Positions 34,802-54,336 of a stretch of DNA of 64,000 nt are shown one piece after another. The notes beneath the pieces were generated by a model that made no database searches, had not been told where the DNA came from, and saw only the letters and a list, made by a program, of their open reading frames with translations. The DNA lies in IMG/VR virus record IMGVR_UViG_3300036846_000489, positions 11,089-75,088 of that record; one strand, written 5' to 3'. Positions within the stretch are counted from its first letter, which is position 1. Each line of letters opens with the position of its first letter. Position numbers and translations under genes: made by a program. Source of the DNA: a virus.

Positions 34802-35293
34802 ATGACTGGCACAGAAATTGCTCTCGCGCGCACACCCCTTTCTTCTACTTCTTCTACCTCTAACAACCAAGATAATAATTACAATCCTTTTGATACCAAG
34901 AAAGGGAAGGGAAGACGTAGTGATGGAACTAATCCCAGAGCACTAGGAACCAACCCTAAAGCTCTCGGAACTAACCCAAGAGCATTAGGCACCAATCCAA
35001 AGAAAATTGGAATTATCGTTCCGCAGGACTGGCGTCCTTCCCAGAGTGCTTGGACCTTTGCCACCAAGCTTGGATTTGGGGAAAGGGAACTTGCCCAATT
35101 CATCCGCTACAACCGGCATAAAAGGTATCACGCATTCAAATGGCAATGGAATAAAATTTTCGTCGGATGGTGCAAGAAAATCCATCAGCGGAAGGAGGAA
35201 CGGTCGGCACAACCGACAGAGACACCGATGGGACAATTCGGCGGGTCATTGCTTGATGGGAGAAAACTCGGGATGTGGGAGACGGTGTGGTGA
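34802..35293 (+). CDS. Replication initiator/DnaT-like protein with GTNPRAL repeats
   Basis: P.DWRPS..F..Y..W..F..W; immediately upstream of primase-helicase. Confidence 0.5.
   Translation: MTGTEIALARTPLSSTSSTSNNQDNNYNPFDTKKGKGRRSDGTNPRALGTNPKALGTNPRALGTNPKKIGIIVPQDWRPSQSAWTFATKLGFGERELAQFIRYNRHKRYHAFKWQWNKIFVGWCKKIHQRKEERSAQPTETPMGQFGGSLLDGRKLGMWETVW
34925..35008 (+). repeat. 4 x 21-bp tandem repeat (GTNP[RK]AL)
   Basis: ggaactaatcccagagcacta / ggaaccaaccctaaagctctc / ggaactaacccaagagcatta / ggcaccaatccaaagaaaatt. Confidence 0.85.
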
Positions 35294-37062: not shown

Positions 37063-37442
37063 AAGGGAGGACGCCATGAACCGCGAGACTGAGGTTGTTG
37101 AGCAAGCCATGCGAGACTTGGAAGAGGAACTGGACACCCGCTTTGACATGCACGAACGCATTGCCGTTCAGCACGTTCTTGAACGGCTGGTTGATGAAGC
37201 ACCCAGGAGGTATCAGCCATGGCACTGATCGAACTGCCGCAGATCGAGCATGTTTGGGTGTGCCTCTGTCGTGCTGAAACTGTCTGTCGTCCTGAGGATT
37301 TTTACCCCGGCGCTGTCTACCAGTGCCCCGGTTGCGAACGTGTGTGGGCATGCGTTAGTCCCCGGAGAGGCGGAAAAGCCTGGGTCAGAGTGACCGACCA
37401 GGATGCAGAATTCCATCGGCTAATGGATGAGGATGACTAGCA

Positions 37443-37763
37443 ATGGCACTGAATTACGGAATACACGGCAGCAGGGCTGCCAGGGATCAGGGTATTTCTC
37501 TGGTCTCGGGAAACGCCACGTCCTTCATGGCACGCGGCATGGAATACATCCAGAAGCTTCCGCCCGGTGATTACACCAGCGAGGATATTAATGCCCGGCT
37601 GGACATCGCCGGCATCAAGCCGCACACCCCAAAGGCGTATGGGGCGCTGACTTCCCATGCGGTGCGGCTCGGTCTGCTGGAAGATACCGGGCGGGTGCGG
37701 CAGATGAAGAAATACAAGAGCCACGCCCGCCGCACGCCGGTCTGGCGCCGGCCGGCTTGGTGA
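37443..37763 (+). CDS. Hypothetical protein
   Basis: P..AYGAL..SH.R..VW conserved phage motif. Confidence 0.55.
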   Translation: MALNYGIHGSRAARDQGISLVSGNATSFMARGMEYIQKLPPGDYTSEDINARLDIAGIKPHTPKAYGALTSHAVRLGLLEDTGRVRQMKKYKSHARRTPVWRRPAW

Positions 37764-38386
37764 TGGCCAAGGGAGGCAGACCAGCCGTTCCGGACGAACT
37801 GGTGCCGGCGGCGATCCGGATGCTGATGACCTACGGTCCCACGGCGGTCATGGAGGCGCACTGGCGTGATCCGGATGACACGACACCGAACGCGGCACGG
37901 AACGCCAGAGAGGTCAGGGGGTTCCGGTCTTACGATCCGCTGCGGTGGTCGCGCCGCCGGCATGGTGACGCCAGTTCGATCACCGAGCTTCACATCCATG
38001 CCGCCGACCGGCTTCGACACGCCGCCGACGTGGCACGCCTAGGAGGGCTTCCAGGGCCGTTGCCAGGGTGGGGCGCCACCCCTACCCAGGCCGGCCGCTA
38101 CAGCCCGTCCACGGGCTTCCCCGCCGCCGCACGGGCCATGTTGCGGGCCGACCGGGAATACCGGAGAGCCATGAGCATTCTGATACCGTCCGAACAGGAG
38201 ATCATCGTCGTGGTCGTGCTGAGAAACGTCAGCATTGCTGCCTGGACGCGGCTTCGAAGATACCTCGGGGACCGGACCCTGCCGCAGACCGAGACGGCCA
38301 AGCTGGTTGGCGCTTTGGACAAGCTGGTTGACCACTACGACACCGAGATCAAGGAAGACATGGCATTCGGGAGGGTCGAGGTATGA
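37763..38386 (+). CDS. Putative late transcription regulator (Q/antiterminator-like)
   Basis: IT..AA.RL..; VV..S..W..L..ALD.L..HY; end of replication arm. Confidence 0.45.
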   Translation: MAKGGRPAVPDELVPAAIRMLMTYGPTAVMEAHWRDPDDTTPNAARNAREVRGFRSYDPLRWSRRRHGDASSITELHIHAADRLRHAADVARLGGLPGPLPGWGATPTQAGRYSPSTGFPAAARAMLRADREYRRAMSILIPSEQEIIVVVVLRNVSIAAWTRLRRYLGDRTLPQTETAKLVGALDKLVDHYDTEIKEDMAFGRVEV

Positions 38387-38682
38387 AGCTGCCGACCAGC
38401 GCTTCCCAGCCGGTCATCGATCTGCTGCGAGAGATCAATGAAACCGCCAATCGGAAAAAGGTCGAAGACCTGCGGGATCAGATCAACGATATCCTGGTCG
38501 ATGAGAACCGATGCGACAGCATGTTTGCCATGGTTCTTGTGCTGTCGGGAATGGCCATCGATCAGCCGGAAGAGAACTGCCAGGAAATCATTCTGCAATC
38601 ATTCTACACGCTCGCGAGACAGGTCATCTATTTGTGGGAAATGAAGCAGGACGGGAACCATCGCCGGAATTTCCAACCGTAG
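38383..38682 (+). CDS. Hypothetical protein
   Basis: ATGA coupled. Confidence 0.5.
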   Translation: MKLPTSASQPVIDLLREINETANRKKVEDLRDQINDILVDENRCDSMFAMVLVLSGMAIDQPEENCQEIILQSFYTLARQVIYLWEMKQDGNHRRNFQP

Positions 38683-38833
38683 ACGCCCCGTGACGCCCCT
38701 GTGTGGCCAGAAAATGCTGTAGAACACTGGAAATATCGGATAATTCCGAAACTCTGCACGACAGAAGGCGCTGGACAAACCGAAAAAATGCGCCGAGAAT
38801 AATCAGGAAGGACACGCAACCAGGAGAACGAAC

Positions 38834-39367
38834 ATGAATAAGAAGATGCAGGTTCCGTGGGTAAACCAAGCTACGTTGACCAAGGCCGAAATGGAGAAGG
38901 TTCGCACGAATTGCGAACCGCGTCGGCCAACGATGTGCCTTAATACCAAGATGGTGAAGCTCGGTGCCGAGAAAAAGGGAAGGATCGTGCGTGGAGTAAG
39001 CACCTTGAATGGGTTCGTTCATTGGTCTGAACAAGAGAAAGACCTTACGTGGCATATGTGGCGCGCGAAATTGCTGCTTCCGTATGCGGAGAAGATCGAT
39101 GTCTACGATACGGACGGCAAGCAATTCACATTGCCAGCAAAGCCGCCGTTTGGTCCGGTGGAATACCGGGGGCCGTGTCGGCCACGCCGGGGCACGCCAG
39201 AGGGTGCCAGATTGGCCAGCAAGAAATTCCAGGAAAGGAAGGCGGCCGGATTGGCTCAGTCACGGAAGAAGTATCGCAATTTGCAAGCTCCCGAGGTGAT
39301 CAGGATGGGAGAGATGGAGCGGGAAAGGGAAAGCTTGCCAGAGGCCGAGCTAGTTCCTACCTTCTGA
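38834..39367 (+). CDS. Basic hypothetical protein
   Basis: SD AGGAG; possible promoter TGGACA-17-GAGAAT at 38772-38800. Confidence 0.6.
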   Translation: MNKKMQVPWVNQATLTKAEMEKVRTNCEPRRPTMCLNTKMVKLGAEKKGRIVRGVSTLNGFVHWSEQEKDLTWHMWRAKLLLPYAEKIDVYDTDGKQFTLPAKPPFGPVEYRGPCRPRRGTPEGARLASKKFQERKAAGLAQSRKKYRNLQAPEVIRMGEMERERESLPEAELVPTF

Positions 39368-39368
39368 T

Positions 39369-39600
39369 CCCCTTCGGGGTGTGGTGTCCTTCCACAGAGA
39401 GCCGGGCGATCCCGTCGCTCGGCTCTCACCACATCTGGCGCGAGAAGGGGCTTGACCGCGCAAGATGAGCGAAGGCATGCTTTCCCTATCGTCGCGGGAT
39501 CGCACACCTTGGAGCCAGCTATGTGACCTGCTAGCGCAGCATTATGAATGGATACGGAATTGGTGTGCTACCTGTTGGGCATCCAGCGACGCGGGTAGAA
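39369..39600 (+). ncRNA. Candidate structured RNA with anti-RBS bulge
   Basis: 82-nt hairpin 39369-39450 with G.U pairs on +, plus a domain sharing 20/21 nt with the early leader; lies in a 387-bp gap between convergent genes. Confidence 0.55.
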
Positions 39601-39754
39601 GCCGGGATAGTCTTTTCCTTCTTGCCACCACTCACGAGCAAGTTTCGGCGCTCTCAGTAGGGCCGCGTCGCGTTCTTCCCCTAGAGACAGCAGGTGGAAG
39701 TAGGCTCTGAATACCAAGGCACGATGTTCCCCCACCCGCATGTCCAGGTGGCGG

Positions 39755-41181
39755 TCAGTCTTTGGAAGCATAGGGCTGCACCTTTTGTCCGAGGAAATCG
39801 AGGTCAAGAACATTCAGGTTGTGGCGTTTGCACCAGACCTGAATACCCTGTTGCGTCCAGCCGACCTCAAGCCGTGACCACGTTTGCGGCGAGACGCCGG
39901 CGGGCATTTCCTTCAGGCACCTGGCACAGTGCATGAACTGGAAGATGCGGTTGGGATGGTCGGTCATATCGGACCCTCCGCATCACACCACACACACCGG
40001 CCGTCTACACCGTAGCGGTGCCTTCCGCTCGGCACACGGCAGGAAGTTTCTGATCTCACCGGCTTCGGTTCGACCAGATCGTCCACCTTGTGCTTGATGT
40101 ATGCCTGATCGTCGGAGAACGTGACCCACGAACGAACGTCGGGGAAGATACGCTGTCCGCATTCAGGGCAGAAGTTCGGCAGCCGGGGATTAACCCAGCA
40201 TAGCAGACAGATGCAGCATTCTGTGCGAATGAGCCGGAAGTGCGCTCTGGTCAGTGCCATTCCATTACTCCCGTCTGCTGCATCAGCCAGTGCTGGACGA
40301 CGACGTGGCGGTAGTGCCACATCGCCGGGTAGAAGGTGGTTGTGGTCATCAGAAACAGCTTCATTGTTTCAACCTCTGGCTGACATTGATCTTGGTGTCC
40401 GGACCAATACCGTCCTTTAGGGTTTCCGCGCAGTGTGCTTCGGTTTCGCCGGAGAAAATCATGACATCGACCGGCAGCCCAACTTCGCGACCGATGATGC
40501 GGATGAAGCTGTCACCCGGCTCTTTGCGGAACTGGTCCAGGTTGGCGAAACTCAGGCCGATCACCAGGATGCTTTTTCCGGTTCCGTCTCTCGCAATTGC
40601 TTTGATCATGAGGATTTCCTGTCCAGCTTGATGTCGTGGGTGCGGTGGCCGTATGATCTACCGGTTCTTATGGCATCGACCAGTTCCTCCATCAGTTCAA
40701 CAAACTCATGAGGGGGTGTGGTCGAGACCACGCGATTTTTCTTTTCTCCCGCCAGTCGATAGATCAGCAGCCAGTCACCGTCATCGCCTATTGCCTTGGC
40801 GAGAAACTGACCTACGGCATCAGCTATGAATTCATCCTCTTTGTCTTCGGTCATTTGGTGTCCTTTTCCTGTTTCCAGCGAAGTGCTGGTGCAGAGAGCC
40901 ACGCCCCACGGGACGCGCTCCCTGCATCAATGCTTCGTCTCCGCAGCGTCTTTTAAGGCGGTGAGTTTGAGGATTAATTTCACTAGCATCGTCAATAGGC
41001 TCGACCGAATTTCTGCGGTGTCCTTGTCGTCTTCCCCATAATGCCCAGCAACCCATATGGCGGTTAGTTCGGCGAGAACTGCGCCCTGTATGGCTGAGGA
41101 CTTGCCAGCCAGGATCGGCTTGATCTGACCGATCAGAGCGATTATTTCCTCTACGTCTTTCTTGGCGAAATCGGTCATCAA
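39755..41181 (-). CDS. Cluster of small early genes (39755-39967, ~39964-40260, 40361-40609, 40606-40854, 40927-41181), two with CxxC motifs
   Basis: Several ATGA-type overlaps; AAGGACACCAAATG start at 40854. Confidence 0.55.
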
Positions 41182-42221
41182 CGCACCTCGTAGTGGGAAC
41201 GGTTGGACTTGAAGCTCTTCCGCTGTTCCTCGGTAGCATTGACCAGTGTGTCCGCGATCCAGATCGACCGACCCGTGGCGTAGTTTCTCGGGTGTCCCAT
41301 GCGGATGTGGAACTGCGGACTTGCGTGGTGCCCGCCCAGACCTTCGCTCCGCTCCCGATGACCGCGTGCCAGAATAGCCGTGACATACGGCTCACTAAGC
41401 ACCCGGTCGTAGTGCGGGATCGGCGGCTTCCGGCTTTTCATCCTGGCACGTTGCAATTTCTCCGGTGGCCGAACTGTCTCCCGATCCACCCCGCGCGTGG
41501 CGAGGATCATCAGGCAACAGATAATCGGGTCACCGATATTGCAGCTTGCCGCCTCGTGGGCCGATTGTCCGTTGTTCTGCAAGGCACGGAATTCATCGTC
41601 GGCGACGAACCGCAGAATAGACGGTGCCACTTGGGAAATATGGTCAACGCCAAGTTCCGGTGGCGGCACCATGAACATGCCACGGTCACCGATTACCAGG
41701 AGTTGCTGGTAACCGAGCGTCAAGGGCTGAAGCTCGCAGACTTCGAAGGTCGTGTCGGAAGGACGATTGACCAGATAGACCGCTATCGCCTTGGTTTCTG
41801 GCAACACCACTGGCTGAGGGCCTGCGCCCTTCCAGATGAGGTTATGATCCCAAGTGTGGTAGCAAATCCACGGGTCGGAAAATGGGAAACCCAAGGCTCC
41901 CATATTCCACATCTTCCCGCCACGCTTCGCGCATTCCGAGATGACCAAGTTCGGCAAGTGACCGAAGTCGATGACCCTGCCGGCTGTCACCGCATCGCGG
42001 CACCGAAGGGAGATCAATTCAACCTCCCTCTGTGTCGAGGCGTATTCACGGCTCTCGGGAAGCAACCGCATGTTCGATGACTGGAAACCGGTGACGCGAA
42101 AATCGAGCACCGCGTCCCGCATCTGCGTGACGGTTGGTCTCCACTCCATGTCCAGCGACATAGTTAGCTCCTGCCCGAAGATCACCTGACCTTCGGGAGT
42201 TCTCATTAGTCTCGGTTCCAT
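41178..42221 (-). CDS. Hypothetical protein with C-terminal H.SP..H.R.GH.R motif
   Basis: Start at AAGGACACCAAATG (42221). Confidence 0.7.
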   Translation of the reverse strand: MEPRLMRTPEGQVIFGQELTMSLDMEWRPTVTQMRDAVLDFRVTGFQSSNMRLLPESREYASTQREVELISLRCRDAVTAGRVIDFGHLPNLVISECAKRGGKMWNMGALGFPFSDPWICYHTWDHNLIWKGAGPQPVVLPETKAIAVYLVNRPSDTTFEVCELQPLTLGYQQLLVIGDRGMFMVPPPELGVDHISQVAPSILRFVADDEFRALQNNGQSAHEAASCNIGDPIICCLMILATRGVDRETVRPPEKLQRARMKSRKPPIPHYDRVLSEPYVTAILARGHRERSEGLGGHHASPQFHIRMGHPRNYATGRSIWIADTLVNATEEQRKSFKSNRSHYEVR

Positions 42222-42291
42222 TTGGTGTCCTTCTCTGTGTCCCCTGGTCGGGGCGAGGACAGCACCGATGCCGGCGCTGCCTTCGTCCAGA

Positions 42292-42909
42292 TCAGCGAAT
42301 ATCAACCTTTTTCGCCGCGCCTTGCTCAAGAGCGGCTTTGAGTATCTGTTGGGCGGCATCGCGTTCTTCGAAGGTTGGCTCCCTTTCCGGCAGAACCTCG
42401 GCAAAACTTCCCATTATGAAACTCTGCGGGTCAGAGGTCTTTTCATCCTTTACCCCGGTGCATTTGCCTTTCGCGTTTCTTACGACTTCGGCTTGTGCCA
42501 CGGCGGTAAGGCGTTCACCGGTATCGTCGTTGCGCCATATGATCTGTGCTATGACGACTTCTTGGCGATCTTCCCGTTGGCTCGGCATGACCTCGGGATA
42601 TTCTGGGTCCGGTTCTCCTGGCTTGCTGCTCGCAATCCAGGCTTCGCCGATGAAGGCGACGGCGAACCCGTTGTCGGCTATACAGATGAGCCGGGCCATT
42701 TCCCGGTGTCCGCGTTTTTCCTTGTCGTCGTAGTTGTTCATTCCGCCGACACCTATCGGGGTAACTCTATGGGCGGCATGAACCACGAATAGCGGCATAA
42801 GGTGTCCTTCTTTGGTGATACACCGCTTGGCATATTCTAGATCAAGCCGAAGTTGTTTGGCATAATCGAACTTTCCCTTGGCGATGTTTGGTCCGGTTTT
42901 TCTCGGCAT
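42292..42909 (-). CDS. Hypothetical protein
   Basis: AAGGACACCAGATG start; EAW..PS..DR.EV motif. Confidence 0.7.
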   Translation of the reverse strand: MPRKTGPNIAKGKFDYAKQLRLDLEYAKRCITKEGHLMPLFVVHAAHRVTPIGVGGMNNYDDKEKRGHREMARLICIADNGFAVAFIGEAWIASSKPGEPDPEYPEVMPSQREDRQEVVIAQIIWRNDDTGERLTAVAQAEVVRNAKGKCTGVKDEKTSDPQSFIMGSFAEVLPEREPTFEERDAAQQILKAALEQGAAKKVDIR

Positions 42910-42982
42910 CTGGTGTCCTTCCTGTTCTCCCCTGGTCGGGGCGGTGACAGCCACGGAATATCCTTGGCTGCCCCCGTCTGGA

Positions 42983-43597
42983 TCAGGGCAAATACCTCTC
43001 AGCGACGTTCTCGCGCTTAATGAACTTCAGTAGGGCTGAATAGAATTCTTCCAGCCGTTGCTCGCCGTCCTGTTGCGACAGCCGTTGTTGCCAATGCTCC
43101 AGGAAATCCCAGGCATTGATCAACGCTCTTTCCCGGTCATAGAACATGAGCGGCCGCCAGCAGTAATCCAGCGACAATTCCGACCACCAGGAACAGGCTG
43201 AAGCCGCCCTGTCCTGGCCGTTCCCGATCCCGCCTTCTCTCGGTGATTTCGATGTTGACCACCACGCGCCGGGGCGGCCCGCCTGAAGGCGGGGGAGGAT
43301 CGTTGTGGAAGGAATTGCCGTCCAGTAAGTAGTCGAATGAGCCACGCTTCGGCTCCTTGTTCTTCAGCATATGCCCAACTCCTTCTTGGTCCGATCAACC
43401 AGATTTTCCCACTCCTTGCAGGCATCTTCCAGCCAGTTGATTGACTTGGCCGATCCCTGAAATTCGTAGGTATCGCGATCAAAGTGAAGACCGTTGAGCA
43501 CCTCTCTTGCCGCCGCTCTCATCGAACAGGCAACATCATACATCAATTGCTTGTTCGCTTTCATAGCGACGGCCTGATCTTCAGTTCTTTTCGGCAT
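42983..43597 (-). CDS. Three small early genes (42983-43147, 43137-43370 with TM helix, 43364-43597)
   Basis: Overlapping starts/stops; motif RBS at 43597. Confidence 0.55.
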
Positions 43598-43702
43598 GGG
43601 TTTGGTGTCCTTCTCTATTCCCCGACCGACTGGTCGAGGCGACAACAGCACCGCGCAAGGCGGGCTGTTCCCGTCAGGATCAGCACGACAGTCTGGCGAC
43701 CG

Positions 43703-44314
43703 TCAGTGGTATCTCCGGTGGTTGCCGTCGGCGGACCAATTTACTTCGTGCCAGTCCGCGACCGGCCCAGGCACGGTCAGAACCGGCACGGCCAATGCCC
43801 CGATGATCCCAGCGGACGCCCTGCCCTCTACACCGGCCAGGACGATCAGCGTGCCACGAGTAAGGAGCGTGGCCTTTTGGTTCGGGAACAGAACCGGCTC
43901 CTTGGTATTATCGAGGCGATCAAGGCTGCTTTCGAATTCGGCAATTCCCTGTTCCCCCAGGCGGGTTGCCAGGGTGACAAGGGCGCCGTGGCTGTCAGCT
44001 TGAAGAATGAAAGACGCCATGGTTGACCACAGTGCTGCCCGGTCTTCCAGGTCGGTATTATTTATCTCTGGGACCGGGTCAGACCACCGAAGCATGTCGC
44101 AGATCATTCCCCGGTTGGGGGAGGCAAATACCACATGCCGCCCATAGCAGGCCGGGAGTGCTAGTTTCCCAGCTTCCTCTGAAGCGATGGCATCGACAAC
44201 CTCCTGCAAGGTCGGAATACAGCGACGCAGTATTCGCTTCGTGCTCGGCTTTTGCGCGCGGCCTTTCACCACATCCTCTAAGGTCATGGTGGCGACGTGT
44301 TCTCCTAGTGTCAT
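43703..44314 (-). CDS. Hypothetical protein
   Basis: AAGGACACCAACCCATG start. Confidence 0.65.
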   Translation of the reverse strand: MTLGEHVATMTLEDVVKGRAQKPSTKRILRRCIPTLQEVVDAIASEEAGKLALPACYGRHVVFASPNRGMICDMLRWSDPVPEINNTDLEDRAALWSTMASFILQADSHGALVTLATRLGEQGIAEFESSLDRLDNTKEPVLFPNQKATLLTRGTLIVLAGVEGRASAGIIGALAVPVLTVPGPVADWHEVNWSADGNHRRYH

Positions 44315-44391
44315 GGGTTGGTGTCCTTCTCCGTCCTCGACTTCTGGTCGAGGCGGCGACAGCGCGGCTTCCCGTGCTGTCTCCGTCCAGA

Positions 44392-45549
44392 TCAGGGTCG
44401 TCTCCTGATGACGTCATAATCGTCGTGAACAACGAAGCCGCGTGAGGCGTCGCCGCGTTCATGCTCCGGTCGCCACCAGCGTTTGCCGCCACAGTCCGAA
44501 CAGACCCAATTATCCGGATCGTCCGGCCCAGCGTCCGGCCACGGCAGCCATTTCGGTGGACCGTGGTTCGGTTCGAAGTTGTGGACGCACCCGGCGATCC
44601 TGGAATAATCGCGGGCTTCCTTGTTGTGGCAGTAGTGACCACGAACTTCGTGCCGGCGACGCGGCACAGCGTCACCCGCCGGGGTGCCGATCAGCCTTAA
44701 GGTCGGCACCGGATCGATCTCTATGGTCACCGTGGTATGTGCCATGTAGGCCCGGAACTTGCCGCTGATGAAGCCAGGGGCATTCGGCAGAGAGTTCCGG
44801 TAGCTGGTCAGCGACGGCCGGTTGAGCATCAGCAGGATCGCGATGATCGTCCGAAAGTCGCCAATCGTGCCACGTGCCATGGACGCCATGCCGCCGTCAG
44901 CGGTCCATTTATGGTAGGATGGATGGGCCGGATTGAGCGGCGTCTGTTCCATGACGTTGAACTCTCGCAGCACGCGCCGTTCGTCGTTGGTCAGGTTGTC
45001 CCAGGTTGATCCCCACATAAGCATGTCGAGGCTCATCCGAGAGCACCCGCACAGACGGGCGAATTCCAACTGATCGTCTATCGGCCATTCGGTTCTTAGT
45101 CGATACTGCATTCCGGTCACCTGCGGGTCAGTGACCGGGTTGGCCACCGTGCCGCCGCAGATGGTATTGATCCGATTATGGTCGATCAGATACCCGACCG
45201 TGTGATCGGCACTGTCAAGTTCGCCATACCAGCCGGTATTTTCATACCGTCCTGGATCAGCGTCGCGTAGCACCTTCCAGTAAATCCACGAAGGCCACTC
45301 TATCCAGGTGACCTCGAAAGGTGGTCTGGCGAAGCCGTGTTCCCGCACCAGAAGTGAAGGAATATCACGCACGACCTGGGCAATACGCTCCGCGGCCCGC
45401 TCGTCAAAGACGAACTTATGGGCGGCACGCATGGAGCGTTGAAGCATGTCCATGGTTTTCGGATGGACGAACCGCTCCTTGGCCGAAAACTTATGAGCCA
45501 AAAAGCGGTCAGCCAGTATTGGCCCCCGCTTGGTAGGTGTTTTGGCCAT
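44392..45549 (-). CDS. Hypothetical protein with RRH.VRGH..W..H.RG C-terminus
   Basis: AAGGACACAACATG start; RPPF..WIE motif. Confidence 0.7.
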   Translation of the reverse strand: MAKTPTKRGPILADRFLAHKFSAKERFVHPKTMDMLQRSMRAAHKFVFDERAAERIAQVVRDIPSLLVREHGFARPPFEVTWIEWPSWIYWKVLRDADPGRYENTGWYGELDSADHTVGYLIDHNRINTICGGTVANPVTDPQVTGMQYRLRTEWPIDDQLEFARLCGCSRMSLDMLMWGSTWDNLTNDERRVLREFNVMEQTPLNPAHPSYHKWTADGGMASMARGTIGDFRTIIAILLMLNRPSLTSYRNSLPNAPGFISGKFRAYMAHTTVTIEIDPVPTLRLIGTPAGDAVPRRRHEVRGHYCHNKEARDYSRIAGCVHNFEPNHGPPKWLPWPDAGPDDPDNWVCSDCGGKRWWRPEHERGDASRGFVVHDDYDVIRRRP

Positions 45550-45624
45550 GTTGTGTCCTTCTGTTCTCCCCGAGCATGTCTGATCGAGGCGGAAACAGCC
45601 ATGCTGCTTCCGTCCGGATCAGGC

Positions 45625-45650
45625 AAAGAAAAGGGGAGCCGAAGCTCCCC
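45625..45650 (-). terminator. Intrinsic terminator inside the early array
   Basis: GGGGAGC-TTCG-GCTCCCC-TTTTCTTT on -. Confidence 0.8.
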
Positions 45651-45681
45651 ACAAAGTCTGGGTCGGATATTTTCTGCCGGT

Positions 45682-46320
45682 CTACGCCGACCGACGCCGC
45701 AACAGGGTCAGGCCGATCAGGCCCATCCCGAGGATCACAAGCGAGGCAGGCTCCGGCACGGCCGTCGCCGAAGCACTGATGTCACCCGCAAAGCTGGCAT
45801 TGAAGGCGCCAATTGTGCTGCCGTCCAAGGCAAGGGTGGGCAGCAGATTGGTGAACGCCAGATTGAACGAGCTTGGGGGCACCAACTCGTTGGCCGGAAT
45901 GACGTTGCTGGCCAACGTGAGGCTCTCCGGGGGGTTGTTGACATTGACTGTCAGACCCGGCCCACCATTTGCCCCAAAGGCGGCATCGGTGAACGTGCCA
46001 GAGAGGAAGTTACCCGTGCATCCGGCAGCACTTGAGATACAGAAGCTTCCCGAGTAATGCTGGATGATGTTGCCCGCTACCGTGATTGCCGCATCGATAG
46101 AATGCGCGGAGAGGGTCATCATGGCGCCAGGAATGGCACCGAGAATACCGCCGCCCAGCAAAGCTAGCTGGTTGGTGTAACTGATATTCGTCACGGTGCC
46201 ATTGTCGGTCGCTACCACGGTATTCGTCGTGGCCTCCTGAGCGAAAGTCGTAAGCAAGGCGGCTTCCGCTACTGTCGGCAAGGCCACGGCGATGGTGGAG
46301 GCAAGCAAAAGTGCCTTCAT
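45682..46320 (-). CDS. PEP-CTERM sorting-domain surface protein
   Basis: Signal peptide MKALLLAST..AEA; C-terminal VPEPASLVILGMGLIGLTLLRRRSA. Confidence 0.92.
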   Translation of the reverse strand: MKALLLASTIAVALPTVAEAALLTTFAQEATTNTVVATDNGTVTNISYTNQLALLGGGILGAIPGAMMTLSAHSIDAAITVAGNIIQHYSGSFCISSAAGCTGNFLSGTFTDAAFGANGGPGLTVNVNNPPESLTLASNVIPANELVPPSSFNLAFTNLLPTLALDGSTIGAFNASFAGDISASATAVPEPASLVILGMGLIGLTLLRRRSA

Positions 46321-46430
46321 CTGGTTTCCTTTCGGGTTGGTGTGAACACTCAGTCTCCCCGGCTTTGCTGGCCGAGGCCGGAACGCCCGCCACAGTTTCC
46401 TGTGGGGACGCTCCGGTCAAGGTCAGATTT

Positions 46431-46640
46431 CTACCGTCTCCGGTGGCTGGCATCTATAGGTTCGATGTCGGTCTCAACCTGACGGGGATCGCGGCCCTGT
46501 TGTATCCGCGATATCCTGGCGGGCAGGATGATATCCCGATTGCAGTCGTCGCAGCACCGGCCATGGTTGATCGGCTCCGCGTTGTTCCCGAACCGGGTGT
46601 ATGGCCGCCCGCAGATCGTGCAGGCTCCGTTCTCATCCAT
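46431..46640 (-). CDS. Zn-finger protein
   Basis: CTICG..GNNAEP..GRCCDDCN. Confidence 0.7.
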   Translation of the reverse strand: MDENGACTICGRPYTRFGNNAEPINHGRCCDDCNRDIILPARISRIQQGRDPRQVETDIEPIDASHRRR

Positions 46641-47136
46641 CCTTGTTCTCCTCTTCCTTGCGCGGCATTCCGGAAAGAAGCTGACCGTAGGTGTGGAGCA
46701 CCTCGGTCACCGGCTTGCCGTCTCGGAAGAACGTGATGGTTCCCGCCGCCTCTGAGGCGCGAGAGTTGCCCCAGGCGTCGAACTCGGCACGATCCATCCA
46801 AATGATGTTCCGACGCAGCCATTCGACGGTGACCACCGGATCGACCGTGTAGTAGCCTCCCGGCACGTCTTCGTCTTCGACCTCTTCGCCCACAACCACA
46901 CCGTTGCCGGCCATTGGCTGGTCGGTGCGGAATGCGCAGAAGAAAAAGTGCATGGTTGGTTTCAGCAAGCCTTCCTCGTCCACGAACATCACATCTCCAG
47001 ACGGGAACCGAAAGGCCGCTTCGATCCAGCCACCGATATAGTCACCGACGGTAGGAAGCTCGCCTTCGGCACTTTGTATGCGATATTCGACCTCACGGAT
47101 TTCCCGCTTCACGGCATCAATGAGAATTGCCTTCAT
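46633..47136 (-). CDS. DUF3846-like protein
   Basis: KAILID..IGGWIE..FVDEEGL..AGNGVVVG. Confidence 0.75.
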   Translation of the reverse strand: MKAILIDAVKREIREVEYRIQSAEGELPTVGDYIGGWIEAAFRFPSGDVMFVDEEGLLKPTMHFFFCAFRTDQPMAGNGVVVGEEVEDEDVPGGYYTVDPVVTVEWLRRNIIWMDRAEFDAWGNSRASEAAGTITFFRDGKPVTEVLHTYGQLLSGMPRKEEENKDG

Positions 47137-47220
47137 GGGTATTTGGTGTCCTTCCATTCAGTTTCCCCAGGCTGGCTGAGGCGAGGACAGCCACCGGCCT
47201 GAGCCGGCGCTGCCTTCGTC

Positions 47221-48357
47221 TTAGTCAGGGTCTATCGGCTCGTCGTGATCGTAGTTCGGATCGGTCAGAACCTCTGGCCGGAACGCGGCCAGCTTCTCCT
47301 TTTCGCATTTCCCGCACATGTATCCGAGAGGAATTCCCCTCGCATCCAGTCCGACCCACGGCCACTCGCCGCTGCCGCACGGGCATTCAGTCAGCATCGC
47401 CATCATGGTTCTCCGTCGTGGCCAACGGCTTTCTGGTCCGCCACGCCATCGACGGTGCGATGGCGTCCGGCGTATTCCCACTGGACCTGATGGAAGCGTT
47501 CGATATTCGCGATGTCACGAATATCCAACTTGAACCCCAGAGCCAAGTAGATTAGTTCCAAATCGCCTTGGTTGAGCCGGTCGAGGTTGGGCAAGGTGGC
47601 ATGAGGGATGCCACAGTGCTCAATGATCCACTCACGGATGACGCGGACCAGTTCGTATTTGTCTGGCCGCATCTTGGGAGGAAGCGACATCACGCTGCCT
47701 CCCGAGGGTCTTCAGTATTTATCGGCATTTGGTGTCCTTTCCAAAGTCCTCGGCGAACTGGCCGAGGCGGCGGTAGCCACGACAAGCGCAGCTACCCCCG
47801 TCCAGGTCAGATCAACTTGATCTCGACAGAAGTGACCGTGTAGGGGCCGTTGCAGCCAAGGCCGGGAGAGCCATACACGGCCTTCCCGTGGGTCAGTTCC
47901 CAGAAGCTTTTCTGCCGAGCCTGAAGGTAGACATCATCAAGCTCACCTTCGCAGATCGACTTTGTCTCCCAGGTCTGGCCCTTGGCAGCGGTGCCACGAA
48001 GGGTGCAGTTGTAGAGGCGGATCATGCCGGCCTCCTTATGAACTCTCGGCCCGGCCTGGACCGAATACCATGGATCAGATCGTCATGTTCTGTAGCGAAC
48101 CGAACCATGGCACGGCGAAGGTCCAGCATCACGTCGCAGATTTTCCGCAGGCGATCCACCTCTTTCTGATCCATCGGAAACTCCGACAACTGCGCCATGG
48201 CATCACAGAGGTTCGATACCATCGCGTTCATCCGGCCCAGGATCAGGTCTTTCTGATCGGTCTCTTTCTGGTATTTCGCCATCAACAAAGCCATGCTGGA
48301 ACGCGCTTCTCGCGCTTCAGCCTTCGCCTGTTGCAGCGGTGTAGGGTTTCGAGGCAT
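47221..48357 (-). CDS. Small early genes (47221-~47406 Zn-finger, 47403-47690, 47807-48025, 48022-48357)
   Basis: CPCGSG..DARGI..C..C; coupled starts; motif RBS at 48357. Confidence 0.6.
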
Positions 48358-48432
48358 TTGGTGTCCTTCCGTTCTCCAGCGCAAACGCTGGTGCAAAGAG
48401 CCACGGGCCATTGCTGACCCGCGCTCCTTGCA

Positions 48433-48903
48433 TCAAGGTTTGTTTGCTTCTCGCGCTATCCGCTCGTCTTCCTTCGTCGCATAATGAGGAAGTTCGCGCA
48501 GAGAAAGGCGGGGCCTTCCAGGCTTTTTTGGCCCAGGTGTTCTTTCCCGTTTCTTTTCCGGTGCTCGCTTTCCCAGCCTATGGGCTTTGGTAGGCGCAAA
48601 AAGTGTGAGTTTGCCGTAGACAAACCGTCCTTCGGTATCGAATTGACGAATGACTTCTGGCCAGTGGTTGACGTATCTCAGCCAGTGTTTTGCCCCTTCT
48701 TCTAGCACATAAGCTCGGTATTTATAGACTATCGCTGCCCGAGCGCCTTCGCGCATTAACGAACGAGCCCAAGGGCAGTCGCACGGATCGTTGGGGCAGG
48801 CGCCCTTGATATCAACAAGAAGAGCCACGACAGGTCTATTCTTCTTCGCGTCCACTATGGGTAGTCCTAGAAAGGCTGGATGGTTTCTCATCATGGATGC
48901 CAT
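48433..48903 (-). CDS. Basic hypothetical protein
   Basis: AAGGACACCAAATG start; DP..C..A..W.RY..FD motif. Confidence 0.65.
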   Translation of the reverse strand: MASMMRNHPAFLGLPIVDAKKNRPVVALLVDIKGACPNDPCDCPWARSLMREGARAAIVYKYRAYVLEEGAKHWLRYVNHWPEVIRQFDTEGRFVYGKLTLFAPTKAHRLGKRAPEKKRERTPGPKKPGRPRLSLRELPHYATKEDERIAREANKP

Positions 48904-48996
48904 TTGGTGTCCTTCTCTGTTTCCTGGTCCGGGTCTGGCCCAGGCGGAAACAGAAACGGCCCCCGAAAGGGCCGCTCTGCTACCGTCACGGTCAGA

Positions 48997-49263
48997 TCAT
49001 CCCCGCCGCGTGATGGTCACGTCGTATCCCTTGTCCACGATTTTCTGGATCAGAATTTCCAGGTCTTCGTGATCGTCGGGGAAAAGCATGTGCAACAGCT
49101 TTTTCACCTTGGCGGGACGCGGCTGGGCGTTGCCGTTCTCGATCTGCGACAGATAGCCATTGGACAATCCGGCACGTTCCGCGAGAGCGGTCTGAGACAA
49201 ACCGCGTTCCTCACGGGCTTGCCTGATCTTTTCGCCCAGGTCGGGGCTGTCGAAATTCACCAT
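48997..49263 (-). CDS. XRE-family HTH regulator
   Basis: LGEKIRQAREERGLSQTALAERAGLSNGYLSQIENG. Confidence 0.9.
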   Translation of the reverse strand: MVNFDSPDLGEKIRQAREERGLSQTALAERAGLSNGYLSQIENGNAQPRPAKVKKLLHMLFPDDHEDLEILIQKIVDKGYDVTITRRG

Positions 49264-49265
49264 GG

Positions 49266-49481
49266 TCAACCTCCTGTCTTCCACCATCGGCCGTGATCGC
49301 CCAGAGTGTATTTCTGGCCGACCCCGACGCCGAGGCCAAAGCCGAACAGAAGATGGCATCTCAGGCACATCATTGCCCACGGCCCCCGACGGGTTGCTCC
49401 ATCAACAAAGTCGGTGTTGAGGGAGCCGCGGCAGATGGCACAGGCAACAGGCTTGCTGCCTTGCCAGTAAAGCTTGGTCAT
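49266..49481 (-). CDS. Zn-finger protein
   Basis: C.IC..FVDG.T..GPWA.MC..C..G.GLG.G.GQKY. Confidence 0.7.
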   Translation of the reverse strand: MTKLYWQGSKPVACAICRGSLNTDFVDGATRRGPWAMMCLRCHLLFGFGLGVGVGQKYTLGDHGRWWKTGG

Positions 49482-49566
49482 TTGGTGTCCTTTCCGTTTC
49501 CCCCGATCCGCTGATCGAGGCGGTGGCAGCACCGCACAGCGGCGGGCTGCCCCCGTCCGGATCAGA

Positions 49567-50121
49567 TCATTCCATCCAGAAACAATTATACCGTTCGCGT
49601 TTCGCCATCCGGCACTTCAGGTTGTTCGCCTCGGCGATCCCTCGCAGATAGGCGAACCACTTCGCACTGGTCTGACCCGTGTGATCGCTGAGTTCCTTTC
49701 TCGAAACCCCCTGCGGCCGGCGAGATTGCTCGACTGCCCAATCGACGAACCCGGCGGGCAGTTTGGAGAGGCTGGGACCGCCCTTGATCTCCGGCCCCCG
49801 GTATTCCCCAGGCTCGACTTCTTCCGGCTTGGGAGAAGCCTCAGCGGCCTTCCTGGCAGCCTTCTTCGGCGCCGGCGCTTTCTTCGCGGTCGGTGCCGCC
49901 GCTTTCTTCTTCTTCGCAGCCTCGATACGCACGACGTTGCTTCCTTCATCGTCAGGAAGCGGACGATCAATCAGGCACCACTTGCCTTCAGCATTCTGTC
50001 CCGGCATGTGGTCGGCACCGAGCAGACGCAGACCGGAGCGCTTGAACTCCTTCTCCATGTCTTCCTTGCTGTCCCATGTCCGAGTTTGTGCCTCGACAAT
50101 GGTCATGCGTGTAGCGGCCAT
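49567..50121 (-). CDS. K/A-rich protein with DUF3489-like winged-helix domain
   Basis: AAKKKKAAAPTAKKAPAPKKAA linker; RPQGVSRKEL..TG. Confidence 0.6.
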   Translation of the reverse strand: MAATRMTIVEAQTRTWDSKEDMEKEFKRSGLRLLGADHMPGQNAEGKWCLIDRPLPDDEGSNVVRIEAAKKKKAAAPTAKKAPAPKKAARKAAEASPKPEEVEPGEYRGPEIKGGPSLSKLPAGFVDWAVEQSRRPQGVSRKELSDHTGQTSAKWFAYLRGIAEANNLKCRMAKRERYNCFWME

Positions 50122-50231
50122 GAATGTGTCCTTCTGTCCGTGGTGGAAATTCCCGGGACTGGCCCAGGCGGAAAAAGCGTGGGGCAGAGGTTTCCCCCTG
50201 CCCCGAGTTGTTTCCGTCACGGTCAGTCAGA

Positions 50232-50651
50232 TCAGGCGCGCTTGCGCACTGCGATCTTGGTCAGCTTGAACACCGGCTTGCCGCCAGAGACGCTGTAGGC
50301 GAGGCCGTTGCTCGTGGCCAACCGTTCTACCCATGGCCGCCACGCCACTTGGTTCTGTCCGGCTCGGCGCGCCAGCATGGCCCGCGTTACCCCTCCCGGA
50401 CTGGACGCCATCTCCAATACCATCTTCGCGAAATCCTTCGGCAGGATGGTATCGTTGACCGGCGGCATCGGCGTTCTGGCTTTTCTCGGCGCTCTGGCTT
50501 TTCTTTCTGCCCGAGGCTTCCGAGCCGACTTCTTCGCTTCCCGGCCCGGTTTCGGGCCTTGACGCCCCCCGGCCACTACCTTGAACTTCTCTGGCACCGC
50601 AGCCATGCGGGCTGAGGCGCTGTTCTTTTTCTTGATTACGGTCTTAGCCAT
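50232..50651 (-). CDS. Basic protein with DUF3489-like domain
   Basis: SSPGGVTRAML..AG..AWRP. Confidence 0.6.
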   Translation of the reverse strand: MAKTVIKKKNSASARMAAVPEKFKVVAGGRQGPKPGREAKKSARKPRAERKARAPRKARTPMPPVNDTILPKDFAKMVLEMASSPGGVTRAMLARRAGQNQVAWRPWVERLATSNGLAYSVSGGKPVFKLTKIAVRKRA

Positions 50652-50762
50652 TGTCTTAACCCTCTTGTTCGAAGACGCACGCCCGCAGTCGGGACGTGCC
50701 CCCGGCATACTGGCCGAGGCCGCAGCACCACCACGGTTTCCCGTGGGGTGCTCCGGTCCGGG

Positions 50763-52110
50763 TCAGGTATCGAAGTCGCGGCGATGCGCCGCTAGGATTT
50801 CCGCGATTTCCTCTGATGGGATCGGCTCGGCCCGATAGAGGATATCGATGTCCGGCACTTTGCTGATGATCATCCGGTAGCCGGGTGGCATTTTCTCCAG
50901 CAACATGAGAATGGTTGCTGCCACGTCGGCATTTTCATCGTTTACCATCCGTTTCTCCTTGCCCTAAAAAGCGAAAGCTGAGACCGTGATTGCCGTCGTT
51001 CTCCCCGACAAAGGATATCGCTGGATGCCCCTCGATCAACAGAAGGTCTTCGTAGAAGCTGTCCCATTCGTCGATCACGGTATCCATCTCTTCCCCTTCT
51101 TTCGGGTAGTTCTCGGCTATGTAGGCGTCGAGCGACATCTGCCGAGCCAATAATACGGCGTTGCCTTCTTCCTGGGCATTCACCCGGATCGCTTGCATGT
51201 AGCCTTCGTCTCCTATCAGGATGACGGTGTAGGGTTGCATTTGGTGTCCTTTCTCCCGAACCATTCTGGCCCAGGGAGAAACGTCGTCCGCAGACGACGC
51301 TTCCCTCACAGGTCAGGCTTCTTGGGGTTCGCCAAACAATTCCTTCCACATCTCGACCGTGGAGAACTGTTCGACCAGCTTCTTCGCCTCGTCCTCTGGC
51401 TGCGGCTCTATGCTCATGGTTTCGTAGCTCTTGACGAAGAGGTAGAACCGGGAGCTTGCGGTGCGATACAGGATCGCATGATCCCAGTGGAGATACTGGC
51501 CGAGGTCGCAGATCGGCTTTCCCTTATCCGTATCGTAGAGAACGCCGTCGATTATTTTCTGCATTTGGTGTCCGTCCTTCTGTCTCCCGTGCCAACCACT
51601 GGCCCAGGCGAGGACGGCCACGGTTCCCCGCGCCGCCTTCGTCTTGGTCAGATAAGTGGTTTCCATCCACCCCATGGGGGAAGCTCTTCGCCCCACCGTT
51701 TCTTCGGCTTCACCCTCTTGCTGCGTGCGGTCACCGCCCGATCATGGGCGGCTCCCAACGCGGCATCCGACATTGGTTTCTCTTTCGCCCGAGACCAGCT
51801 ATCGCTTGGCCCCACACGAAGCCGAACCTCTGGCACGCTTCCATAGGGCAGACCCTTCGCCTTGGATTTCCGGTTGGGATTTCCCTGACGAAGGAACTTC
51901 CTGCCCTTCGGATACGACCAGTTAATCCGAGACTTTTTCTTCACTCGGAATAGGCTCGAATATGACCGACCACTCGGGGTTTGATCCTTCCGGGTTGCAT
52001 CTGATTACGATCTGCTCTCCGGGAGAAAGGTCGTCGAGAAACTCGACCACCCGCTGAATGATGGCGAACCTTGGTTCTTCGTATTCGCGCTTGTTGGCGA
52101 CTTCTTCCAT
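50763..52110 (-). CDS. Small early genes (50763-50948, 50935-51240, 51313-51564, 51648-51773, 51922-52110)
   Basis: Motif RBS starts; KIIDG.LYDTDK..LYRT..FYL in 51313-51564; 50763 and 51922 share PG..EPIPSEE. Confidence 0.6.
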
Positions 52111-52792
52111 GTGTCTGTCCTTCCGTTCACACTCGTGCTCTGTCTTGGGGGCTTGCAACCCTCGGCAACCTTTCGGCTGACGGCGACATTCCGACCGACC
52201 CCCGTAGGGGCCGGGCGGTGAACAGAGGTTAAGGACACACCAAATTTTCGTATGAATACAACCGAGACTGTTTCGCCCTTCCCGCCCGCAAGATCGCCTC
52301 ACGGCTACCCTTACGACTTGTTCTCAGGCTAGGCTGTATCCACACGCCCGTATCCATTCACAATGCTGGCTTACACGCTGACGCCAGCAGACATCCGACA
52401 ACCCTGCTCACGCCCACCGGGCGTTTTTCTAGGTGTCGGTGTATCTACTGTGTCAGCCAGAGCGGGGCGCTCTTGGCAGGCTTACAAGGATCGCGCTCTC
52501 CCGGTATTCCCAACGCGCATTGATCCAGGGGGGTTTATGTTGCTGCCCATTTCGCCTTGCCAGTCTGATACCCTTTGCGACCTCTGTTGAGGTCGGGCCT
52601 TCTGGGTGGCACTATGGCGTGGCCGTGGTCCGCTCCTTGACACACTGTCGGCCAGCGTGTCACCTCGGACACCGTCCACTTGCACCTCGGAAGTTCTTTC
52701 CTCGCACGCTTGCAGCGCCCCATCTTCACCTGTCAAAGAACCCGCCGGGGTCGAAGGCGGGGCGGCCCGCCGCCCCTTTTCCTCCCGGCCAT
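52111..52792 (-). ncRNA. Long structured 5' leader / candidate large ncRNA
   Basis: No credible ORF between the strong promoter and first gene; many short hairpins, several with GNRA loops; boxA-like GTTCTTTGACA at 52731-52741. Confidence 0.6.
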
Positions 52793-54167: not shown

Positions 54168-54293
54168 TCACAGTGCCATCGCGAACAGCGCTGCCGCGAG
54201 CGCGCAGATCGTGGCGGCAAGGAACATCGTGGTCCGCTTGCTGGTATCCGGCTGCGGCCGGCGCGGGAATTGATCGTCTTTTGAGGCGTTCAT
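54168..54293 (-). CDS. Small membrane protein
   Basis: AAGGACACCACGATG start; C-terminal TM helix. Confidence 0.55.
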   Translation of the reverse strand: MNASKDDQFPRRPQPDTSKRTTMFLAATICALAAALFAMAL

Positions 54294-54309
54294 CGTGGTG
54301 TCCTTCCAC

Positions 54310-54336
54310 AGAAAGAAAGAGGGGCCGAAGCCCCTC
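54310..54336 (-). terminator. Intrinsic terminator
   Basis: GAGGGGC-TTCG-GCCCCTC-TTTCTTTCT on -. Confidence 0.75.

What the first reader, a model, noticed from the sequence alone, without database searches (positions are those of the whole stretch)
39369..39450. Hairpin RNA displaying an anti-RBS toehold complementary to ~16 phage start sites
On +: CCCCUUC/GAAGGGG, GGUGUGGUG/CACCACAUC and a 12-13 bp inner stem enclose a single-stranded bulge UCCUUCCACA (39387-39396). G.U pairs favour the + strand. UGGUGUCCUUC is the reverse complement of the repeated RBS GAAGGACACCA, with an 18-nt perfect match to 54295-54312. On -, this copy has no start codon, so it is not itself an RBS. The geometry suits toehold-mediated strand invasion of many mRNAs.
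Basis: partly seen in the sequence, partly recalled or inferred. Interest (0 to 1): 0.88.

Follow-up and report, generated by a model that had tools for sequence, protein, structure and literature searches.

The report
Conserved anti-ribosome-site hairpin RNA candidate
Just after the last replication gene of an uncultured 75-kb soil phage lies a conserved set of RNA hairpins that exposes the exact complement of the private ribosome-binding signature used by about 17 early genes on the other strand, so it could shut those genes off together, but no RNA data exist to prove it.

Summary
GAAGGACACCA occurs 18 times with at most 1 mismatch, all on the - strand (about 1.3 expected). It is the Shine-Dalgarno plus spacer of about 17 genes of the leftward early array. 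The copy at 39392-39382 has no start codon within 45 nt.

It lies in the 200-nt gap between convergent operons, 15 nt after the stop of the last rightward gene. The 18-nt identity is real but sits at 39381-39398 = 54295-54312.

The only accessible relative (primase 64% identical) keeps the same startless copy at the same place, between hairpins of unrelated sequence. In both phages all 5 non-Watson-Crick pairs of the long hairpin are G.U on the + strand, whereas the 15 array hairpins favour the - strand. In both, the anti-SD core UGUCCUU is predicted unpaired.

So a + strand RNA module at the 3' end of the replication operon is supported. Repression in trans of the standardised start sites is plausible (about 0.4) but untested. 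Rivals are a terminal array unit acting on the - RNA, a recombination junction, and a DNA site.

The closest analogues are SAS/ESAS of cluster K mycobacteriophages and anti-SD loop sRNAs. Earlier notes of this scan describe three similar orphan-copy antisense cases in other phages.

The parts
38834..39367 (+). Last gene (177 aa, no known family) of the rightward replication operon. Its stop codon TGA is at 39365-39367, so the element is its 3'UTR.
   Evidence: ORF list. GC by codon position is 0.54/0.44/0.65, typical of coding sequence. No Pfam or PHROG hit. The primase/helicase gene lies upstream at 35275-37062.
39369..39379 (+). Small 5' hairpin CCCC-UUCG-GGG. It reads as a C(UUCG)G loop on the + strand only.
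   Evidence: Folds. The - strand terminators of this phage group carry UUCG on their own sense strand. The relative has a different small hairpin at L061 13570-13588.
39380..39396 (+). Middle hairpin UGUGG/CCACA with the 7-nt loop UGUCCUU (39385-39391), which is the anti-SD core. The alternative fold leaves GUCCUUCCACA in an internal loop.
   Evidence: Unpaired probability is 0.7-0.99 in three contexts. Nested alternative. The relative has the same loop with stem CAGG/UCUG at L061 13606-13620.
39382..39392 (-). Startless ('orphan') exact copy of the start-associated sequence GAAGGACACCA.
39397..39427 (+). Long hairpin: 14 bp with 2 G.U on + and a 3-nt loop. Probable 3'-end or terminator hairpin of the rightward transcript.
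   Evidence: + -27.1 against - -20.4 kcal/mol. The relative's hairpin in L061 13628-13676 has 16 bp with 3 G.U on + (-28.0) against -19.1 on -. No U-tract on either strand.
39429..39436 (+). Box CCACATCT, conserved in the relative and, with one change, in a third soil contig. It can pair with GGUGU of the anti-SAS, or with AGATG at 39463-39467.
   Evidence: Alignment, read by eye. Loose end of an X1 contig.
39450..39471 (+). 22-nt block GCTTGACCGCGCAAGATGAGCG, 21 of 22 identical in the relative. It contains TTGACC (-35-like on +). Function unknown.
   Evidence: It is read in different frames in the two phages, so it is not coding.
54295..54312 (-). Start region of a 41-aa hydrophobic peptide gene (54293-54168), 18 nt identical to 39381-39398. 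It is the best predicted target (-37.4 kcal/mol).
   Evidence: The peptide has no homologue in the relative.
40856..51576 (-). Array copies of the start-associated sequence: 15 start sites plus one in-frame internal start at 42798.
52228..52245 (-). A second anti-SAS, on the array's own leader RNA (AUUUGGUGUGUCCUUAAC), conserved in the relative.
   Evidence: sequence; G001 copy at about 32803.

Best explanation
The element is the conserved 3'-terminal RNA module of the rightward (replication) operon. Right after the stop codon of the last gene the + transcript forms a small UUCG hairpin, a short hairpin or internal loop, and a strong 14-bp terminal hairpin. The short hairpin or loop exposes UGUCCUU, with full complementarity GGUGUCCUUC.

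The exposed stretch is the complement of the standardised Shine-Dalgarno plus spacer (a 'start-associated sequence') that precedes about 17 genes of the convergent early gene array. I take the most likely function to be that of an anti-SD RNA. It would act either as the 3'UTR or as a roughly 60-nt fragment protected by hairpins at both ends. It would pair with those start sites and lower translation, or trigger cleavage, of the early array once the replication operon is transcribed.

Shown: the position, the conservation, the + strand structural bias, the predicted accessibility and the complementarity. Inferred: that the RNA accumulates, that it pairs in vivo, and that pairing represses.
For: 1. 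Every rightward transcript that reaches the end of gene 38834-39367 must contain the anti-SAS. It starts 15 nt after the stop codon, and only a weak 4-bp hairpin with no U-tract terminator comes before it.
2. The relative G001/L061 keeps the startless copy at the syntenic place with AAGGACACC intact. The long hairpin, the small hairpin and the adjacent gene are not alignable.
3. Strand test: all 5 non-Watson-Crick pairs of the two long hairpins are G.U on +. The 15 array units, known to be - sense, favour - (sum -445 against -392 kcal/mol; G.U 31 against 18). The whole-region z-scores are -2.9 against -1.8 in the window and -3.1 against -1.4 in L061.
4. UGUCCUU is predicted unpaired in both phages.
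5. Duplex of the 22-nt seed with 18 start regions averages -25.0 kcal/mol (best -37.4), against -16 for other start sites and random windows. In G001 the figures are -26.1 against -13.3.
6. Each startless copy carries its own genome's majority variant: GAAGG in the window, AAAGG in G001.
7. Precedent of design: alphaproteobacterial alpha-r14 sRNAs carry an identical anti-SD motif in unpaired regions of hairpins whose stems differ (PMC10746234).
Against: - The + strand preference rests on 5 pairs in two genomes (p about 0.03 one-sided, my estimate).
- No promoter of its own and no U-tract terminator on either strand, and no Rfam family.
- Read on the - strand, the copy plus its linker looks like a normal start site that lost its AUG: the 54306 unit in the window, CAG..CUGAAUG units in G001. 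Its small stem also occurs at real start sites, so that stem is not evidence for the + strand.
- One anti-SAS per rightward transcript would face about 17 sites per array transcript.
- The array leader already carries an anti-SAS on the - RNA, which could be the real regulator.
Confidence: 0.4

Rival explanations
1. The copy works on the - strand RNA as the terminal unit of the early array. It would be a start-site-like module without a gene, in the trailer of the long antiterminated message. It could bind 30S subunits or whatever factor recognises the start-associated sequence (decoy or stabiliser), or mark the last processing site.
For: - It has the same orientation as all other copies.
- Its linker plus motif match genuine units of the same genome.
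Read-through into the trailer is therefore plausible.
- In G001 the leader's anti-SAS pairs best with the startless copy (-33.1 kcal/mol).
Against: - The hairpin that precedes it in - sense is better on + in both phages, unlike the array hairpins.
- It lacks the two-hairpin layout of array units.
- In G001 a strong canonical - strand terminator lies between the last gene and the element.
- In the window the leader pairs with the startless copy less well than with ordinary sites (-17.8 against -20 to -28).
- A leader-trailer helix that includes it would cross the one already proposed at 39502-39568 (my reading).
Confidence: 0.25
2. There is no RNA-regulatory role. The hairpins are simply the 3'-end or terminator structures of two convergent operons. 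The start-site copy is a cassette junction kept uniform by recombination or gene conversion among the repeated units, so that genes are gained and lost at these sites.
For: - Gene content differs on both sides of the element. The last + gene is not homologous between the phages.
- Relatives in the soil sample skip 39488-39754 and 39557-39782.
- The phage encodes an ERF recombinase.
- The linker next to the motif matches other units of the same genome rather than the other phage's startless copy.
Against: - The homology available for conversion is only 11-18 nt.
- The indels seen do not abut the copy.
- A neutral junction would not be expected to stay exact in two lineages whose surrounding non-coding DNA is unalignable.
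- The idea does not explain the conserved CCACATCT box or the exposure of the motif between + sense hairpins.
Confidence: 0.2
3. The motif is a DNA site for a phage or host protein, comparable to the stoperators of cluster A mycobacteriophages. The startless copy, with the neighbouring conserved 22-mer and the imperfect inverted repeat CATCTKG / CAAKATG around TTGACC, would then be a protein-controlled boundary or promoter region.
For: - Block-wise conservation of CCACATCT and of the 22-mer containing TTGACC.
- Pope et al. considered DNA-binding proteins for the ESAS repeats (PMC3203893).
Against: - The motif contains the SD core at a proper distance from ATG at about 17 genes.
- Array hairpins lean towards the RNA sense strand.
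- No promoter passed the consensus scan here.
- The inverted repeat is short and imperfect, and was not reported by the repeat finder.
Confidence: 0.1
4. Narrow version: the + RNA is an antitoxin-like antisense RNA aimed mainly at one gene, the 41-aa hydrophobic peptide at 54293-54168. Its start region matches over 18 nt, in the manner of a type I toxin-antitoxin pair.
For: - An 18-nt perfect identity, which gives the best duplex (-37.4 kcal/mol).
- The product is short, with a hydrophobic C-terminal half.
Against: - No homologue of the peptide in the relative, which nevertheless keeps the startless copy.
- The two loci are 15 kb apart.
- In G001 the extended complementarity is to ordinary array units.
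Confidence: 0.05

Closest known systems
[quoted passage not shown] 2011, PMC3203893)
   Same: - A short asymmetric repeat that includes the SD core, a few nt before ATG.
- 11-19 copies in one orientation, restricted to non-structural genes.
- Often preceded by inverted repeats.
- Subcluster K1 phages also have a single copy not tied to a gene start. The authors left open whether an RNA or a protein recognises the sites, and the function was still unknown in 2025.
   Different: - Unrelated sequence (GAAGGACACCA against the 13-bp cluster K consensus), and a different, probably alphaproteobacterial, host.
- Here the upstream repeats fold as RNA.
- The odd copy in K1 phages is inverted, whereas here it keeps the orientation and simply lacks a start codon.
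- This is analogy, not homology.
alpha-r14 / NfeR1-type anti-SD sRNAs of Alphaproteobacteria (PMC10746234)
   Same: Hairpins whose unpaired regions carry an anti-Shine-Dalgarno motif while the stems differ in sequence. One RNA is predicted to target many mRNAs at their ribosome sites.
   Different: - Those are stand-alone host genes with their own promoters and terminators and a CCUCCUCCC motif in three loops.
- Here there is a single motif, phage-encoded, in a 3'UTR position, aimed at a private extended site. No Rfam match.
Phage antisense RNAs that mask a ribosome site: P1/P7 c4 (PMC8198154) and P22 sar (my own knowledge)
   Same: A phage-encoded RNA that pairs with the translation start region of phage genes to keep them off.
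   Different: Those act on one operon (icd-ant, or ant), in temperate immunity circuits. c4 lies on the same transcript as its target and sar is cis-antisense. Here one trans-complementary copy faces about 17 dispersed sites.
3'UTR-derived sRNAs of enterobacteria such as CpxQ and SroC (my own knowledge)
   Same: The regulatory seed lies just downstream of a stop codon and just upstream of the mRNA's terminal hairpin.
   Different: Those end in a U-tail terminator that binds Hfq and are released by RNase E. No U-tail is present here, and processing cannot be tested.
T4 RegA translational repressor (my own knowledge)
   Same: The same logic: one phage product shuts off translation of many early messages by occupying their start regions.
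   Different: RegA is a protein. Here the candidate is an RNA, and the target sites are standardised rather than loosely similar.

Membership tests
SAS/ESAS-type start-associated repeats (cluster K mycobacteriophages) | Short asymmetric repeat in more than 10 copies, one orientation, far above chance | tested here: met
   18 matches, all on -, against 1.26 expected.
SAS/ESAS-type start-associated repeats (cluster K mycobacteriophages) | Lies a few nt upstream of start codons, mostly ATG, and contains the SD core | tested here: met
   16 copies lie 1-7 nt before an ATG-initiated ORF. The startless copy is the exception.
SAS/ESAS-type start-associated repeats (cluster K mycobacteriophages) | Consensus sequence of the family (13-bp cluster K motif) | tested here: not met
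   The motif here is GAAGGACACCA. The paper's consensus is different. This is an analogue, not a member.
Trans-acting anti-SD small RNA | Anti-SD sequence in an unpaired loop, complementary to target start regions | tested here: met
   In silico only: unpaired probability 0.7-0.99; duplex energies.
Trans-acting anti-SD small RNA | A discrete transcript on that strand, with its own promoter or a processing site | not testable with these tools
   No RNA run was available to test this. No consensus promoter upstream. The position in the 3'UTR of gene 38834-39367 guarantees only co-transcription.
Trans-acting anti-SD small RNA | Membership of a curated RNA family | tested here: not met
   No Rfam hit at E up to 10 over 39250-39650.
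Intrinsic (Rho-independent) terminator, possibly bidirectional | G+C-rich stem-loop | tested here: met
   14-bp stem, -27.1 kcal/mol on +.
Intrinsic (Rho-independent) terminator, possibly bidirectional | U-tract directly after the stem | tested here: not met
   Not listed by the terminator scan. The tails are ACCACAUCU on + and UGUGGAAGG on -.
Array intergenic unit of this phage (two hairpins, then linker, then start-associated sequence) | Two - sense hairpins upstream of the motif, the first embedding the upstream stop codon | tested here: not met
   The startless copy has one long hairpin that is better on +, preceded by a 4-bp stem, whereas the array units favour -.
Array intergenic unit of this phage (two hairpins, then linker, then start-associated sequence) | Linker plus motif followed by a start codon | tested here: not met
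   Linker and motif are present, but there is no start codon within 45 nt. The same holds in G001.
Type I toxin-antitoxin pair | Small hydrophobic peptide whose start region is covered by an antisense RNA encoded nearby, with the pair conserved together | tested here: not met
   The 18-nt match and the 41-aa peptide exist. The loci are 15 kb apart, and the peptide is absent from the relative that keeps the element.

The most novel reading that the evidence does not exclude
A lytic-type phage uses the 3' end of its replication-operon message as an RNA counterpart of T4 RegA. One exposed anti-SD loop recognises a private, standardised ribosome-binding signature and so switches off a whole array of about 17 early accessory genes at once. 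The standardised start sequence (and by analogy the unexplained SAS of cluster K mycobacteriophages) would then exist to make many unrelated cassettes addressable by one RNA.
Probability: 0.3. Interest if true: 0.8.

Novelty: new variant of a known kind. Interest (0 to 1): 0.6.

Why it matters
Repeated start-associated sequences in phages have had no known function since 2011 (PMC3203893; still open in PMC12699233).

A conserved, startless copy whose complement is displayed on the opposite transcript gives a concrete hypothesis that can be tested with mutants. On this view the signature is an address label that lets a single phage RNA control many unrelated early genes.

Earlier notes of this scan describe three comparable cases in unrelated phages. 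I did not check them. If the pattern holds, it could be a general phage strategy for timing early gene shut-off. It would also offer a simple design for controlling many genes with one RNA.

Tried and rejected
- Expression: no RNA holder was listed for window 37000-43000, so strand use could not be tested. Laying the two soil DNA runs showed only a close strain variant and low-depth relatives. The table of differences is truncated, so I make no claim that the element is invariant there.
- More relatives: I searched for the exact 15-nt motif in IMG/VR (single chance hits only) and for the 22-mer (only G001). I searched with the flanking proteins, with primase in metagenome contigs, and with the primase alignment in genome and viral contigs. 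I also ran blastn against cultured phages. Only one usable relative emerged.
- Coding explanation: the - strand ORFs across the element are read in different frames in the two phages and are not similar. Rejected.
- A relic of a lost gene: rejected as sufficient, because the 9-11 nt stay exact while all surrounding non-coding sequence has diverged.
- A second leader-trailer helix, between the leader's anti-SAS and the startless copy: it is strong in G001 (-33.1) but weaker than ordinary sites in the window (-17.8). Not consistent.
- Full-length duplexfold of the 64-nt RNA against 45-nt targets was uninformative, because random windows scored -31. It was replaced by the 22-nt seed.
- Consensus promoter scans around the element in both phages found nothing convincing. 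The conserved TTGACC at 39452-39457 points away from the anti-SAS.

Full report
**Setting.** The window is bases 11089-75088 of a complete 75,088-bp IMG/VR virus record with terminal repeats. The record comes from soil and has no close cultured relative.

The finding lies in a 200-nt gap between two convergent transcription units.
- On the + strand, a replication operon (DnaT-like gene, primase/helicase at 35275-37062) ends with a 177-aa gene of no known family, 38834-39367. Its codon-position GC is typical of coding sequence.
- On the - strand, a long array of small genes of no known family ends at 39568. This array starts from a consensus TTGACA-17-TATGAT promoter near 52836-52800, followed by a roughly 680-nt leader.

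**The observation.** GAAGGACACCA occurs 18 times with at most one mismatch, always on the - strand, against 1.3 expected.
- It is AAGGA (the SD core) plus a conserved CACCA spacer.
- It sits 1-7 nt before the ATG of 16 ORFs, plus one 12-aa mini-ORF and an in-frame internal start.
- The copy at 39392-39382 is exact but has no ATG, GTG or TTG within 45 nt.
They form the minimum-energy fold of 39369-39450 on the + strand (-46.2 kcal/mol, z -3.8). The - strand also folds well.
- With more context, the + RNA prefers three adjacent hairpins, the middle one holding UGUCCUU in a 7-nt loop.
- The 18-nt identity with the start region at 54295-54312 is real but lies at 39381-39398.

**Comparative evidence.** One relative could be reached: IMGVR_UViG_3300045044_000009 (G001, locus L061), 75,005 bp, with primase 64% identical.
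- It has its own version of the signature (AGAAAGGACAC) before nine array genes.
- At the syntenic convergent gap it has a copy with no start codon (L061 13616-13607 on the array strand).
- The architecture matches the window: small hairpin, GGTGTCCTTyC, long hairpin, CCACATCT, about 13 nt, then a 22-nt block that is 21 of 22 identical.
- The hairpin sequences are unalignable, and the adjacent + gene is not homologous.
- ORFs across the element are read in different frames in the two phages, so the conservation is non-coding.
- A neutral remnant would not stay exact in both lineages. The copy is therefore maintained, by function or by repeated recombination.

**Which strand.** The long hairpin has 14 bp with 2 G.U on + (-27.1) against 12 bp with A.C mismatches on - (-20.4). 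The relative's unrelated hairpin has 16 bp with 3 G.U on + (-28.0) against -19.1 on -.
- So 5 of 5 non-Watson-Crick pairs favour +.
- As a control, the 15 array hairpin units, which are certainly - sense, lean the other way: -445 against -392 kcal/mol, and 31 against 18 G.U pairs.
- The window's small hairpin is a C(UUCG)G loop on +. Genuine - strand terminators of these phages carry UUCG on -.
- Whole-region z-scores agree: -2.9 against -1.8 in the window and -3.1 against -1.4 in L061.
- I conclude, with moderate confidence, that these hairpins are shaped for the + transcript, that is, the 3' end of the replication operon.
- Only a weak 4-bp hairpin with no U-tract follows the stop codon before the motif. 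Hence that transcript should carry the anti-SAS.

**Accessibility and complementarity.** UGUCCUU is predicted unpaired in both phages.
- The stems around it differ: UGUGG/CCACA in the window against CAGG/UCUG in L061. The same stems occur at real start sites (the 54306 unit; CAG..CUGAAUG units in G001), so they are not evidence for the + strand.
- A 22-nt seed pairs with the 18 start regions at a mean of -25.0 kcal/mol (best -37.4 for the 41-aa peptide gene at 54293). Other start sites and random windows give about -16.
- In G001 the figures are -26.1 against -13.3. This follows from complementarity and is plausibility, not proof.

- No RNA data, no own promoter, no U-tract terminator, and no Rfam family.
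- The nested toehold geometry is not conserved.
- Read on the - strand, the copy looks like a start site that lost its AUG.
- The array leader carries its own conserved anti-SAS on the - RNA (52228-52245). That could be the real regulator, or a partner of the startless copy. The pairing is strong in G001 but weak in the window.
- In G001 a canonical - strand terminator lies between the last array gene and the element. This speaks against a simple - strand role, unless the array is antiterminated.

**Comparison with known systems.**
- The repeated signature is an analogue, not a homologue, of the start-associated sequences of cluster K mycobacteriophages. Their function is still unknown, and K1 phages also have one copy not tied to a start.
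- The proposed RNA works like alphaproteobacterial anti-SD loop sRNAs and like phage antisense RNAs such as P1 c4.
- It fails membership tests for any curated family and for a canonical terminator.

**Earlier notes of this scan.** They describe the array units, the leader and a leader-trailer pairing in this genome. They also describe three similar 'orphan copy = antisense RNA' cases in other phages. I used these as leads only.

**Verdict.** The best reading is a conserved + strand 3'UTR module displaying an anti-SD loop against the early array, with confidence about 0.4. The rivals, in order, are a terminal unit acting on the - strand, a recombination junction, and a DNA site.

Noticed in passing
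window 54594-54648 (-): Full-length match to the type III hammerhead ribozyme model (41.5 bits, below the gathering score of 48.5; E 5e-8 locally). It has a GUC site and a CGAAAC core, but reads CCGAUGAG where the consensus has CUGAUGAG. It lies just upstream of a 75-aa gene.
   Followed up: partly
window 52132-52195 (-): Weak twister-P1 ribozyme-like match (32 bits, gathering score 67, E 0.002). It lies between the leader's anti-SAS and the first array gene (start 52110).
   Followed up: no
window 52228-52245 (-); G001 about 32803 (+): The array's leader RNA holds a near-complement of linker plus start-associated sequence (AUUUGGUGUGUCCUUAACCUCUGUUCA), conserved in the relative. It is a same-strand anti-RBS candidate.
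   Followed up: partly
window 39450-39471, with 39433-39439 and 39462-39468: A 22-nt block containing TTGACC is 21 of 22 identical in the relative. It is flanked by an imperfect inverted repeat, CATCTGG / CAAGATG (CATCTTG / CAATATG in L061). It could be a promoter with operator pointing rightwards. Function unknown.
   Followed up: partly
window 42798 and 42909 (-): Two in-frame starts of one gene (205 and 168 aa) each have their own copy of the start-associated sequence, which suggests two protein isoforms.
   Followed up: no
window 47740-47690 (-): One array copy of the signature drives only a 12-codon mini-ORF (MPINTEDPREAA) ahead of the next gene.
   Followed up: no
window 54168-54293 (-): A 41-aa peptide with a hydrophobic C-terminal half, placed directly after an intrinsic terminator (54337-54312). 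Its start region is the 18-nt twin of the startless copy. It has no homologue in the relative.
   Followed up: partly
window 39488-39782: Low-depth relatives in the source soil sample join 39488 to 39754 and 39557 to 39782. The 81-aa ORF 39813-39568 therefore lies in a variable insert between the conserved trailer and the conserved 70-aa gene.
   Followed up: no
window 38807-38817 (+): A 9 of 11 copy of the signature on the + strand lies in the 5' leader of the 177-aa gene, 16 nt before its ATG and ahead of a normal AGGAGA site. It could pair with the anti-SAS in the same message's 3'UTR. No equivalent was seen in the relative.
   Followed up: no
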